The notes below the pieces were generated by a model. That model was not told the origin of the DNA. It did no database searches and saw only the letters and a list, made by a program, of their open reading frames with translations. A DNA stretch of 64,000 nucleotides, taken from assembly GCF_988243305.1 (NCBI RefSeq), contig NZ_OZ547136.1; one strand, 5' to 3'. A program made the translations under genes and the position numbers. Below are positions 355 to 888 of this stretch, in pieces; the stretch's first letter is position 1, and every line of letters starts with the position of its first letter.

Positions 355-565
355 AAACGGTTTGCGGGAAAAGGAGAGTTAAGTAGAATTGCAGCGGGTG
401 CTTGAGGCTATCTGTCTCAGGCATGAACACCAAAAGGCAGATAGAGAAAAGCCCCAGTTAACATTACGCGTCCGGCAAGACGCTTAACATTAATCTGAGG
501 CCATATCTATGCTCTACACACGTAGGTTAGCCTCTTACGTGCCGAAAGGCAAGGAGAAGCAGGCT

Positions 566-721
566 ATGAAGCAGCAAAAGGCGATGCTAATCGCCCTGAT
601 CGTCATCTGTTTAACCGTCATGGTGACGGCACTGGTAACGAGGAAAGACCTCTGCGAGGTACGAATCCGAACCGGCCAGACGGAGGTCGCTGTCTTCACA
701 GCTTACGAACCTGAGGAGTAA
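566..721 (+). CDS. hok: Hok/Gef family type I toxin (small membrane toxin)
   Basis: Translation MKQQKAMLIALIVICLTV..TALVTRKDLCEVRIRTGQTEVAVFTAYEPEE is near-identical to HokD/Gef as I recall them; a longer upstream in-frame ORF (509) would be the mok-like leader frame. Confidence 0.85.
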   Translation: MKQQKAMLIALIVICLTVMVTALVTRKDLCEVRIRTGQTEVAVFTAYEPEE

Positions 722-789
722 GAGACCCGGCGGGGGAGAAATCCCTCGCCACCGCTGATGTGTCAGGCATCCTCAACGCACCCGCACTT

Positions 790-817
790 AACCCGCTTCG
801 GCGGGTTTTGTTTTTTC
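790..817 (+). terminator. Rho-independent terminator downstream of hok
   Basis: ACCCGC-TTCG-GCGGGT hairpin followed by TTTTGTTTTTT. Confidence 0.6.
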
Positions 818-888
818 TGGTCGTTCTGGTTTACAATCCATCCGTCAGCCTGAACAACTGGCACCTGCTGCGCCAGCAGAGAAAACAG

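What the first reader, a model, noticed from the sequence alone, without database searches (positions are those of the whole stretch)
355..830. Hok-type type I toxin locus in the prophage nin region
A near-canonical Hok/Gef toxin ORF lies with a long structured leader upstream (355-565) and a terminator downstream. A longer in-frame upstream start (509) and the leader would be where the mok-like leader frame and an antisense Sok-type RNA are expected, but I could not confidently place promoters by eye. A prophage-borne hok locus can stabilise the prophage or act in abortive infection.
Basis: partly seen in the sequence, partly recalled or inferred. Interest (0 to 1): 0.45.

Follow-up and report, generated by a model that had tools for sequence, protein, structure and literature searches.

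The report
Intact prophage hok/mok/sok toxin-antitoxin cassette
This is a complete copy of the well-known Hok/Sok "host-killing" toxin-antitoxin cassette (HokD/HokW type) in its usual place in a lambda-like prophage, so it is real and probably functional but ordinary.

Summary
Window 361-816 holds a complete hok/mok/sok type I toxin-antitoxin cassette.

- **Toxin:** the 51-aa ORF at 566-721 matches Pfam HOK_GEF (E 1.4e-23). It is 50/51 identical to E. coli K-12 HokD and 46/51 to HokW of phage 933W/Sp5.
- **Leader:** 396-571 matches Rfam RF01794 at 117 bits (gathering score 59).
- **mRNA fold:** the predicted 420-nt mRNA folds with z = -6.0. Its 5' end (396-407) pairs with 771-783, the tac/fbi end-pairing of plasmid R1 hok. 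The same program recovers that pairing in an R1-type control.
- **mok:** the ATG at 509 opens a 70-codon frame, in frame with hok as in mokC and mokW.
- **Sok:** the minus strand carries TTGCCT-17 nt-TAACCT (552-524). It is identical to the sokW promoter, whose -10 was mutated experimentally in Sp5. It would give a 71-nt Sok RNA (517-447).
- **Position:** the cassette sits upstream of rem-like/ydfU/rusA/Q, as hokD does in K-12 Qin. K-12 has lost everything left of 552; this copy has not.

About 92% of complete E. coli genomes carry related sequence. Novelty: already known. Interest is low. No RNA or toxicity data exist for this copy.

The parts
361..389 (+). hok/mok mRNA promoter: -35-like TTTGCG/TTGCGG (361-367) and -10 TAGAAT (384-389)
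   Evidence: Read from the sequence. TAGAAT and a TTG-type -35 at fixed spacing are kept in nearly all distinct relatives, although the spacer and upstream DNA differ. The simple consensus scan did not call it because the -35 is weak.
396..816 (+). Predicted full-length hok/mok mRNA (about 420 nt)
   Evidence: The 5' end is set by the first position of the Rfam RF01794 model and by alignment to +1 of the R1-type hok mRNA. The 3' end is set by the terminator. MFE -169 kcal/mol, z = -6.0.
396..407 (+). tac element (5' end, GGGUGCUUGAGG)
   Evidence: Pairs with 771-783 in the MFE and centroid of the full-length RNA. In the leader alone it forms a local hairpin with 414-424, like the metastable hairpin of nascent R1 hok mRNA (PMC9841398). 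Invariant in 63 distinct relatives apart from two single changes.
408..444 (+). 5' leader hairpin (first helix of the Rfam model)
   Evidence: The compensatory change A-U to G-C at 410/442 occurs in 5 distinct relatives.
450..456 (+). ucb / anti-SD (AGCCCCA)
   Evidence: In the full-length fold it pairs with the mok SD region. By direct reading, 450-455 is also complementary to tac 397-402 in 5 of 6 positions, the same pattern as R1 U6-A70, C5-G71, G4-C72 (PMC9841398). The MFE of the truncated RNA did not recover this stem.
451..502 (+). Sok-target hairpin on the mRNA; its complement is the terminator hairpin of Sok RNA. It carries a 16-nt extension relative to the Rfam consensus.
   Evidence: Compensatory changes at 457/495, 459/492 and 460/491 in relatives. 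The extension is shared with 933W hokW and absent from K-12 hokC.
497..500 (+). mok Shine-Dalgarno GAGG, 8 nt before the mok ATG
   Evidence: Direct reading. Corresponds to the GAGG mok SD of R1 (PMC9841398).
509..721 (+). mok leader reading frame (70 codons), in frame with hok and sharing its stop
   Evidence: ORF list. Same arrangement as the annotated mokW of 933W and mokC of K-12. ATG at -57 in frame in most relatives.
524..552 (-). Sok promoter: -35 TTGCCT (552-547), 17-nt spacer, -10 TAACCT (529-524)
   Evidence: 0 differences from 933W across -35, spacer and -10. Primers YO-421/422 of PMC8621323 replace TAGGTTAG by CCGGCTCG, destroying this -10 in the 'pro-less' construct that lost antitoxin activity. 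Not called by the consensus scan.
447..517 (-). Predicted Sok antisense RNA (71 nt): a single-stranded 5' tail, then a long hairpin followed by GGGGCUUUU
   Evidence: Coordinates transferred from the sokW misc_RNA annotation of AF125520. Fold -29.4 kcal/mol, z = -4.3.
552..556 (+). hok Shine-Dalgarno AGGAG, 9 nt before the hok ATG
   Evidence: Direct reading. Invariant across window, 933W, K-12 hokC and K-12 hokD.
566..721 (+). hok toxin gene (51 aa, MKQQKAMLIALIVICLTVMVTALVTRKDLCEVRIRTGQTEVAVFTAYEPEE)
   Evidence: Pfam HOK_GEF 82.6 bits. 50/51 identical to K-12 HokD, 46/51 to HokW, 22 to R1 Hok. PGAP names the gene hokD in relatives. The identical protein is present in IMG/VR contigs L007 and L008.
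704..707 (+). TACG motif at the Tyr47 codon: the TadA A-to-I editing site (Tyr to Cys) reported for hokC, hokD and hokE
   Evidence: Direct reading. Editing at this aligned position is described in PMC5630033 and PMC12214031. Editing of this copy was not tested.
729..750 (+). 3' stem-loop (GGCGGGGGA-GAAA-UCCCUCGCC), the expected 3' end protector of the processed, active mRNA
   Evidence: Counterpart of the R1 hairpin GGCGGGC-GCAG-GCCCGCC. The R1 stem protects the truncated mRNA from exonucleases (PMC9841398). The stem is kept despite 5 differences from 933W.
771..783 (+). fbi element (CCUCAACGCACCC), complementary to tac with one bulged C
   Evidence: Duplex -21.5 kcal/mol against a shuffled 3'UTR mean of -15.5; 22 of 2000 shuffles were as good. 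0 differences from 933W.
790..816 (+). Intrinsic terminator (AACCCGC-TTCG-GCGGGTT, then TTGTTTTTT)
   Evidence: Terminator scan. Homology with most relatives ends at 809-819. 933W has different sequence here.

Best explanation
Window 361-816 is an intact hok/mok/sok type I toxin-antitoxin cassette of the HokD/HokW type. It lies in the early-right operon of a Qin-like lambdoid prophage, between the replication genes and the Q antiterminator.

Inferred mechanism, by homology to plasmid R1 hok/sok and Sp5 hokW/sokW:
1. A constitutive promoter (361-389) makes a stable mRNA of about 420 nt.
2. The 5' end of that mRNA (tac, 396-407) pairs with the fbi element near the 3' end (771-783). The mok ribosome-binding site (497-500) is sequestered by the anti-SD (450-456). 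The full-length RNA is therefore neither translated nor bound by Sok.
3. Slow 3' exonucleolytic trimming back to the 729-750 stem-loop removes fbi, and the leader refolds.
4. The refolded RNA has two possible fates. Either ribosomes load at mok (509) and translate through the hok start (566), allowing synthesis of the 51-aa membrane toxin. Or the short-lived 71-nt Sok RNA (517-447, from the minus-strand promoter 552-524) pairs across the mok start region, blocks translation and marks the duplex for RNase III.
5. Whenever Sok supply falls, Hok is made and depolarises the inner membrane.

Most likely biological role: as for hokW-sokW, Sok disappears on prophage induction and Hok assists lysis and phage release. 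Stabilisation of the prophage or phage exclusion are possible additional roles.

Shown here: the sequence elements, their conservation and the predicted folds. Inferred: transcription, processing, toxicity and the biological role.
For: - Toxin: Pfam HOK_GEF at 82.6 bits. It is 50/51 identical to K-12 HokD and 46/51 to HokW.
- Leader: Rfam RF01794 at 117 bits against gathering 59.
- Folding: full-length z = -6.0, with 396-407 paired to 771-783 in both the MFE and the centroid. The same program recovers the experimentally established 5'-3' pairing in an R1-type hok mRNA and in 933W hokW.
- The leader alone forms the local 5' hairpin expected of the nascent RNA.
- Sok: promoter -35, spacer and -10 are identical to sokW, as are tac, fbi and the hok SD. 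The sokW -10 is the hexamer changed by primers YO-421/422; in PMC8621323 that mutant construct lost antitoxin activity. The Sok fold has z = -4.3.
- mok in frame with hok, as in mokW and mokC.
- Conservation: across 63-68 distinct prophage relatives the promoter hexamers, leader, 3'UTR and terminator are nearly invariant while flanks diverge. 97% of predicted pair cells are paired, with compensatory changes in the 5' hairpin and the Sok-target hairpin.
- Function of close relatives: HokW is toxic, sokW neutralises it with partial RNase III and Hfq dependence, sokW RNA vanishes after mitomycin C, and phage yield halves without the locus (PMC8621323). HokD is among the literature controls described as toxic when overexpressed in bioRxiv 10.1101/2025.08.07.668861.
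Against: - There are no expression, processing or toxicity data for this copy.
- The simple promoter scan called neither the hok nor the Sok promoter, because both have weak hexamers.
- The MFE of the 3'-truncated RNA shows the local 5' hairpin rather than the tac/ucb stem of the R1 model.
- tac and fbi are invariant among the relatives collected, so that pairing has no covariation support within this set. Its duplex energy beats only 99% of simple shuffles.
- The predicted helix between 510-522 and 756-769 is often broken in relatives and is probably not real.
- The toxin carries I19M relative to K-12 HokD. This is untested, although the identical protein occurs in other prophages.
- Native chromosomal hok loci tested in the literature did not give post-segregational killing (summarised).
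Confidence: 0.92

Rival explanations
1. Unregulated or decayed relic: a hok ORF left over from an old cassette, like K-12 hokD (relF), with no working Sok or mok control.
For: K-12 hokD is such a relic. Its similarity to the window starts only at 552, just before the hok SD, where relBE has replaced the leader. Six of 150 IMG/VR contigs also lack the leader. Several K-12 hok loci are described as inactivated in the literature.
Against: This copy keeps everything K-12 hokD lacks: promoter, tac, anti-SD, Sok-target hairpin, mok SD and ATG, and the Sok promoter. These are identical or nearly identical to the experimentally active hokW-sokW. They reach 117 bits against the Rfam leader model.
Confidence: 0.04
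2. Same molecular device, but its main role is post-segregational killing or stabilisation: cells that lose the prophage are killed, as with hok/sok on plasmid R1.
For: This is the classic role of R1 hok/sok and the 'prophage maintenance' note in the 933W annotation. hok genes are about four-fold enriched in prophages (bioRxiv 10.1101/2025.08.07.668861).
Against: [quoted passage not shown] Deleting hokW-sokW from Sp5 did not affect growth under normal conditions, and the phenotype found was at induction. Many genomes carry several near-identical copies whose Sok could cross-protect: the median is 2 places per genome and the maximum 11, and 7 of 23 within-genome pairs share the same Sok 5' variant.
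Confidence: 0.2
3. Same molecular device, but its main role is abortive infection: a superinfecting phage shuts off host transcription, Sok decays, and Hok kills the cell before the phage completes.
For: A role of Hok in phage defence is reported in the literature cited by bioRxiv 10.1101/2025.08.07.668861. From my own knowledge, not checked here, this refers to R1 hok/sok partial exclusion of T4. The mechanism follows naturally from an unstable antitoxin RNA.
Against: hok loci are not enriched next to defence systems. No test exists for HokD/HokW-type loci.
Confidence: 0.15
4. The cassette matters to the prophage mainly as a transcriptional element. Its terminator (790-816) and the convergent Sok promoter would act as a nin-type barrier that keeps Q expression dependent on antitermination, with the toxin secondary.
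For: The cassette is co-directional with the early-right operon. In 59 of 72 relatives with enough flank it sits directly upstream of rem-like/ydfU/rusA(/Q). It ends in a strong intrinsic terminator.
Against: This rests purely on position. The Hok coding sequence and all the RNA control elements are conserved, which a mere terminator would not need. 933W carries the same cassette far from Q and with a different 3' end.
Confidence: 0.08

Closest known systems
hokW-mokW-sokW of Stx2 phage 933W / Sakai prophage 5 (AF125520; Takada et al. 2021, PMC8621323)
   Same: About 93% nucleotide identity over window 310-793. The hok promoter, tac, Sok -35/spacer/-10, hok SD and fbi are identical. mok is in frame, Sok is 71 nt, and the Sok-target hairpin carries the same 16-nt extension. 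The toxin is 46/51 identical. Both are in lambdoid prophages.
   Different: HokW has a different C-terminus (VFVDYESEK against VFTAYEPEE). There are 6 of 21 differences in the Sok 5' tail/discriminator. The sequence after fbi differs, and 933W lacks this terminator. In 933W the cassette lies at the far end of the genome next to a YgiW-like gene and opposite in direction to the neighbouring large gene L0134, not in the nin-equivalent region.
hokD (relF) of E. coli K-12 cryptic prophage Qin
   Same: The toxin is 50/51 identical. Window 552-815 is 98.1% identical, including the 3' hairpin, fbi and terminator. The gene order is the same: hok - rem - ydfU - Q. PGAP names the gene hokD in relatives.
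   Different: K-12 has relB-relE in place of everything left of 552, so it has no own promoter, tac, anti-SD, mok or sok. The window copy has all of them. K-12 also has about 420 extra nt between hokD and rem, and no rusA.
hok/mok/sok (parB) of plasmid R1, the paradigm
   Same: The architecture and predicted RNA logic are the same: 5' tac / 3' fbi end-pairing, anti-SD sequestering a GAGG mok SD, a Sok-target hairpin, a small hairpin before the hok SD that contains the Sok -35, and a 3' protective stem-loop (PMC9841398). The tac/fbi sequences differ in a mutually complementary way: GGCGCUU/GAAGCGCC in R1 against GGGUGCUUGAGG/CCUCAACGCACCC here.
   Different: Only 22 of 51 toxin residues are identical. 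From my own translation of the R1 sequence, not a tool result, R1 mok is in a different frame from hok. R1 Sok is described as about 64 nt (my recollection). R1 is plasmid-borne with a proven PSK role.
hokC (gef)/mokC/sokC of E. coli K-12
   Same: mokC is an in-frame N-terminal extension of hokC, as here. The leader aligns throughout. The toxin is 41/51 identical.
   Different: It is chromosomal and not in a prophage. It lacks the 16-nt hairpin extension. In K-12 IS186 lies 20 nt beyond the hokC stop, and similarity to the window's 3' region ends before fbi.

Membership tests
hok/sok (Hok/Gef) type I toxin-antitoxin family | Small Hok/Gef toxin ORF of about 50 aa with an N-terminal transmembrane helix and a conserved Cys | tested here: met
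   PF01848 at 82.6 bits against a cut-off of 22, covering profile positions 1-42 of 42. Cys30 and the editable Tyr47 (TACG) are present by direct reading.
hok/sok (Hok/Gef) type I toxin-antitoxin family | Conserved structured hok mRNA leader | tested here: met
   Rfam RF01794 at 117.1 bits against gathering 59, model positions 1-157 of 157. The model lies on the hok sense strand and ends at the hok AUG, so it certifies the leader, not Sok transcription. Leader fold z = -3.5.
hok/sok (Hok/Gef) type I toxin-antitoxin family | mok leader reading frame with its own SD, starting upstream of hok and running across the hok start | tested here: met
   GAGG at 497-500 and ATG at 509, a 70-codon frame through hok. 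The start is conserved in relatives, although the frame relative to hok varies.
hok/sok (Hok/Gef) type I toxin-antitoxin family | cis-antisense Sok gene (promoter, short RNA, terminator hairpin) overlapping the mok translation start | tested here: met
   TTGCCT-17-TAACCT at 552-524 is identical to sokW. The sokW -10 is the hexamer replaced by primers YO-421/422, and the 'pro-less' construct lost antitoxin activity. The 71-nt RNA at 517-447 has a terminator-like hairpin, z = -4.3. Actual transcription is not testable here.
hok/sok (Hok/Gef) type I toxin-antitoxin family | Long-range 5' tac / 3' fbi pairing that closes the full-length mRNA | tested here: met
   396-407 pairs with 771-783 in the MFE and centroid. 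The R1-type and 933W controls give the same result. 22 of 2000 shuffles were as good. There is no covariation within the close relatives.
hok/sok (Hok/Gef) type I toxin-antitoxin family | mok SD sequestered by an anti-SD (ucb), and an alternative tac/ucb stem in the processed mRNA | tested here: inconclusive
   SD sequestration by 451-461 is seen in the full-length fold. tac 397-402 is complementary to 450-455 in 5 of 6 positions by direct reading, but the MFE of the truncated RNA shows the local 5' hairpin instead.
hok/sok (Hok/Gef) type I toxin-antitoxin family | 3' processing to a shorter, translatable mRNA that ends at a protective stem-loop | not testable with these tools
   The 9-bp stem-loop at 729-750 is present between the stop codon and fbi. 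Processing itself needs RNA analysis.
hok/sok (Hok/Gef) type I toxin-antitoxin family | Toxicity of Hok and neutralisation by Sok (RNase III dependent) | not testable with these tools
   Shown for HokW/sokW, which is 46/51 identical with identical control elements, in PMC8621323. HokD is listed among controls described as toxic. Not tested for this copy.
HokD (RelF) locus of Qin-type lambdoid prophages | HokD-type toxin in the position hok - rem - ydfU - Q | tested here: met
   50/51 identical. The same gene order is seen in K-12 Qin and in 59 of 72 prophage relatives.
isrK (Rfam RF01394) Hfq-binding sRNA | Match at or above the family's gathering score | tested here: not met
   27.2 bits against gathering 50 at 730-811. 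The match consists of the hok 3' stem-loop plus the terminator.

The most novel reading that the evidence does not exclude
The short hypervariable patch at 503-523 covers the 5' recognition tail of Sok, the discriminator, and mok codons 2-5. It has at least 20 variants inside an otherwise near-invariant cassette. The novel reading is that this patch is under diversifying selection and defines Sok/hok specificity classes, so that co-resident prophage copies are controlled independently. In the nin-type position, read-through from the early-right promoter at induction would then switch on only the inducing prophage's own Hok to time lysis. My one test did not support class avoidance among co-resident copies, but it was small and used draft assemblies.
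Probability: 0.1. Interest if true: 0.45.

Novelty: already known. Interest (0 to 1): 0.1.

Why it matters
It matters mainly for annotation. Automatic pipelines label only the 51-codon hokD ORF here. They omit mok, the Sok RNA, the promoters and the mRNA control elements. They therefore cannot distinguish an intact, probably active cassette like this one from the truncated K-12 hokD.

The locus shows what the K-12 Qin hokD site looked like before relBE replaced its leader. It also shows that the position directly upstream of rem-ydfU-rusA-Q is the usual home of this hok type in prophages.

If it works like hokW-sokW, it would contribute to lysis timing and phage yield on induction. It does not open a new question on its own.

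Tried and rejected
1. **Consensus promoter scan of 200-1000.** It found neither the hok nor the Sok promoter. It found one + strand site (TTAACA-18-TATGCT, 484-513), with 0.3 expected by chance. I treat that site as chance, because its hexamers are the Sok terminator arm and the mok ATG. The promoters were placed by homology and conservation instead.

2. **Orthogonality hypothesis for the hypervariable Sok 5' patch.** Among 16 isolate genomes with two or more leader-bearing prophage copies, 7 of 23 pairs had the identical variant, against 2.4 expected by permutation. That is no avoidance and, if anything, an excess. Duplicated contigs in draft assemblies may inflate the count. Rejected as unsupported.

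3. **Folding of the 3'-truncated RNA (396 to 750-760) to recover the R1-type open form.** The MFE gave the local 5' hairpin, not tac/ucb. Inconclusive.

4. **Covariation for tac/fbi among 63 close relatives.** The pairs are essentially invariant, so this says nothing either way. The predicted helix 510-522/756-769 is frequently broken and was dropped from the model.

5. **isrK.** Sub-threshold, not a member. A distant search of the 3' region against phages gave one weak Salmonella hit (OK490361.1, 78 nt at 77.5%), which I did not open, and no record named Gifsy.

6. **Relic reading (K-12-like hokD).** Rejected because the full leader is present.

7. **Further expensive searches.** I did not run the large protein-database, structure-prediction or metagenome searches. 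The identity was already settled by Pfam, Rfam and annotated genomes.
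Full report
**1. What is there.**
The window begins inside a lambdoid prophage. All the genes at its left end are on the + strand:
- the end of a DUF551 ORF (86-274);
- a small hydrophobic ORF (271-354);
- the finding (355-830);
- a rem-like ORF (884-1167);
- a DUF968/YdfU gene (1169-2227);
- rusA (2228-2608);
- a Q antiterminator (2605-3426).

A 99%-identical relative (NZ_CM136155) has a LexA-family (CI-type) repressor, cro, ydaT and a long run of other + strand early genes upstream. Downstream of Q it has a methyltransferase, tRNAs, lysis genes and structural genes.

**2. The toxin and the leader.**
ORF 566-721 encodes MKQQKAMLIALIVICLTVMVTALVTRKDLCEVRIRTGQTEVAVFTAYEPEE. 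It matches Pfam HOK_GEF at 82.6 bits, E 1.4e-23. Its identity to known toxins is as follows:

| Comparator | Identical residues |
|---|---|
| K-12 HokD | 50 of 51 (I19M) |
| HokW | 46 of 51 |
| HokC | 41 of 51 |
| R1 Hok | 22 of 51 |

Rfam family RF01794 ('sok') matches 396-571 on the + strand at 117.1 bits against gathering 59. This model runs from the hok mRNA +1 to the hok AUG on the sense strand. It therefore certifies the hok leader, which contains the complement of Sok, rather than an antisense transcript. PGAP labels the same gene hokD in related genomes but annotates nothing else in the cassette.

**3. Anatomy of the mRNA.**
- **Promoter.** Upstream of 396 lie a -10 TAGAAT (384-389) and a -35-like TTTGCG/TTGCGG (361-367). 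In 73 distinct related sequences the -10, a TTG-type -35 at fixed distance, and the start region GCGGGTGCTTGAGG are kept, while the spacer and everything further left differ.
- **Closed form.** The 420-nt RNA 396-815 folds at -169 kcal/mol, z = -6.0. Both the MFE and the centroid pair the 5' end GGGUGCUUGAGG (396-407) with CCUCAACGCACCC (771-783), with one bulged C. This is the tac/fbi end-pairing that keeps R1 hok mRNA closed (PMC9841398).
- **Controls.** The same program pairs nt 1-10 with 387-396 of an R1-type hok mRNA taken from a plasmid record. It also pairs the two ends of 933W hokW.
- **Significance of the pairing.** The duplex energy (-21.5 kcal/mol) was equalled by 22 of 2000 shuffles of the 3'UTR. 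That is supportive but not overwhelming on its own.
- **mok ribosome-binding site.** In the closed form the mok Shine-Dalgarno GAGG (497-500) sits inside the 451-502 hairpin opposite GCCCCAG. This is the anti-SD/ucb arrangement of R1 (PMC9841398).
- **Nascent-RNA hairpin.** The leader folded alone gives a local hairpin of 396-408 with 414-424, like the metastable hairpin described for nascent R1 hok mRNA.
- **3' end.** A 9-bp stem-loop (729-750) lies between the stop codon and fbi, where R1 has the stem that protects the processed mRNA. An intrinsic terminator follows at 790-816.
- **Open form.** I could not recover the tac/ucb stem of the processed RNA in an MFE fold. Positions 397-402 and 450-455 are nevertheless complementary in 5 of 6 positions, the same pattern as in R1 (direct reading).

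**4. mok and Sok.**
The ATG at 509 lies 8 nt after GAGG and opens a 70-codon frame that runs in frame into hok. This is the arrangement annotated for mokW in 933W and mokC in K-12.

On the minus strand, TTGCCT (552-547), a 17-nt spacer and TAACCT (529-524) precede a predicted start near 517. These coordinates come from the sokW misc_RNA feature of AF125520, transferred through the alignment.

The -35, spacer and -10 are identical to those of 933W. In the experimental paper on hokW-sokW of Sp5, primers YO-421/YO-422 replace TAGGTTAG with CCGGCTCG, which destroys this -10. In that paper the 'pro-less' construct lost protection against HokW, and sokW supplied in trans partially restored growth (PMC8621323).

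The 71-73-nt RNA has a free 5' tail and a long hairpin followed by GGGGCUUUU (-29.4 kcal/mol, z = -4.3).

**5. Relatives and cassette limits.**
- Related sequence is present in 4,969 of 5,426 complete E. coli genomes. The median is 2 places per genome and the maximum 11. It also occurs in 84 phage records, among them many Stx-converting phages, and on plasmids.
- Against 933W the match covers 310-793 at about 93%.
- Against K-12 Qin hokD it covers only 552-815 (98.1%), because relBE replaces the leader there. The gene order hokD-rem-ydfU-Q is nevertheless the same. The window copy is thus the intact form of the Qin-type hokD locus.
- In 80 + 120 IMG/VR loci, homology to the window typically starts between 271 and 397 and ends at 809-819 or continues into the rem-like gene.
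- Of 72 loci with enough flank, 59 have the rem-like gene and/or DUF968/RusA (and in 27 this Q type) directly downstream on the same strand; 2 others lie beside a YgiW-like gene as in 933W, and 11 have none of these.

**6. Conservation pattern.**
Among 68 distinct leader-bearing sequences, positions 380-809 are almost invariant, with a minor-allele fraction of 0.09 or less per 10-nt bin. The exception is a patch at 500-529 (0.17, 0.28 and 0.09 in its three bins). The coding region is conserved partly by ascertainment, because the loci were chosen by Hok identity. The leader and 3'UTR were not selected in that way.

Of the predicted base pairs, 97% of cells are paired. Compensatory changes occur at 410/442 and at 457/495, 459/492 and 460/491.

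The variable patch covers the first 15 or so nt of Sok, the discriminator, and mok codons 2-5. At least 20 variants were seen.

The mok frame also varies among relatives:
- in frame with hok (70 aa) in most;
- a 19-codon ORF whose TGA overlaps the hok ATG in one subfamily;
- a 68-codon frame shifted relative to hok in two loci (L017, L040).

This fits the published view that translation of mok, not its product, is what matters (PMC9841398).

I tested whether co-resident copies avoid sharing a Sok 5' variant. They do not: 7 of 23 pairs were identical against 2.4 expected. The patch remains unexplained. It may be neutral drift at the only unconstrained spot, or it may reflect diversifying selection.

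**7. Mechanism and role.**
I take the molecular mechanism to be that of R1 hok/sok, as restated for hokW/sokW:
1. A closed, stable full-length mRNA is made.
2. Slow 3' trimming to the 729-750 stem removes fbi.
3. The RNA refolds.
4. Either mok-coupled translation of Hok follows, or Sok pairs across the mok start and RNase III cleaves the duplex.

The sequence elements and folds are shown here. Transcription, processing, toxicity and RNase III dependence are inferred.

For the biological role, the best evidence is from Sp5. There sokW RNA disappears after mitomycin C in a RecA-dependent induction, HokW appears about 1 h before the endolysin, and phage yield halves without the locus.

Post-segregational stabilisation and abortive infection remain possible. 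Native chromosomal hok loci failed PSK tests, and hok is not enriched near defence systems.

The toxin also keeps the TACG motif at the Tyr47 codon (704-707). This is the TadA editing site that recodes Tyr to Cys in hokC, hokD and hokE.

**8. Verdict.**
The thing is an intact member of a long-known family, in its commonest prophage position and present in most E. coli genomes. Novelty is 'already known' and interest is low. Its practical value is a correct full annotation: mok, Sok, promoters, tac/fbi, the 3' stem and the terminator, none of which the annotation of the relatives examined lists.

Noticed in passing
window 271-354 (+): An unannotated 27-aa hydrophobic ORF (MSWPEALTTVGIAMAVALVVYSICRWG). 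Its ATG overlaps the stop of the DUF551 ORF. It stays open in most related loci, including a diverged version (MNWPEAFAITGVAMAIAFLVYVICRWG), and it travels with the hok cassette in many prophages, including Sp5. It is probably a real small membrane protein gene. PGAP does not annotate it in the two relatives examined.
   Followed up: partly
window 503-523 (both strands): A hypervariable patch inside the otherwise near-invariant cassette. It covers the first 15 or so nt of Sok RNA plus the discriminator, which is mok codons 2-5. At least 20 variants occur among 150 viral contigs. Co-resident copies do not avoid the same variant. The cause is unexplained.
   Followed up: yes
L012, L016, L041 and similar; L017, L040 (region aligned to window 509-566): The mok frame differs among near-identical cassettes. 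It is in frame with hok (70 aa) in most. One subfamily has a 19-codon ORF ending in a TGA that overlaps the hok ATG. Two loci have a 68-codon frame shifted relative to hok.
   Followed up: partly
window 730-811 (+): A sub-threshold Rfam isrK match (27 bits against gathering 50) made of the hok 3' stem-loop and the terminator. From memory, isrK of Salmonella Gifsy-1 also lies just upstream of an antiterminator Q module, so a common origin is conceivable. I did not examine a Gifsy sequence.
   Followed up: no
window about 816-880; L087 9696-10534: The junction just right of the hok terminator is a variable spot. The closest relatives carry a 1.3-kb insert there encoding an HTH protein and an ImmA/IrrE metallopeptidase. 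K-12 Qin has about 420 extra nt at the same place.
   Followed up: partly
window 396-571 (Rfam RF01794): The Rfam family called 'sok antitoxin' matches the hok sense strand and ends at the hok AUG. A hit therefore marks the hok leader, not the Sok RNA strand. Automatic annotation from this model would put 'sok' on the wrong strand and make it more than twice too long.
   Followed up: yes
window 36000-52000: The chromosomal part (yciQ to the trp operon; Trp leader at 46870-46963 on the minus strand) is at best 98.2% identical to any of 5,426 complete E. coli genomes. The hok locus is likewise at best 98.2%. The host is probably a lineage, or a Shigella/Escherichia relative, outside that collection. 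Phage records named 'PPompW' share the rem/ydfU region. From memory, ompW lies next to the trp operon, which would fit this integration site.
   Followed up: partly
window 5100-5349, 6049-6238, 36557-36755, 60903-61105: Other Rfam hits in the window: two tRNAs downstream of Q, STnc100 (132 bits), IS009 (224 bits) and STnc180 (200 bits). None was examined.
   Followed up: no
phage record PP818812.1 13135-13644: A record labelled 'Actinobacillus phage vB_Apl-pPE4' carries a hok locus 97.5% identical to this E. coli prophage cassette. The host label looks odd for such a sequence.
   Followed up: no
one IMG/VR locus (row starting ATCTGAGGCCCAATCTATG): In one relative, a partial second leader (Sok-target region through the Sok promoter, ending ...GGCAAGG) is fused directly to the GGGTGCTTGAGG start of a complete cassette. 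This suggests recombination between tandem or co-resident hok cassettes.
   Followed up: no
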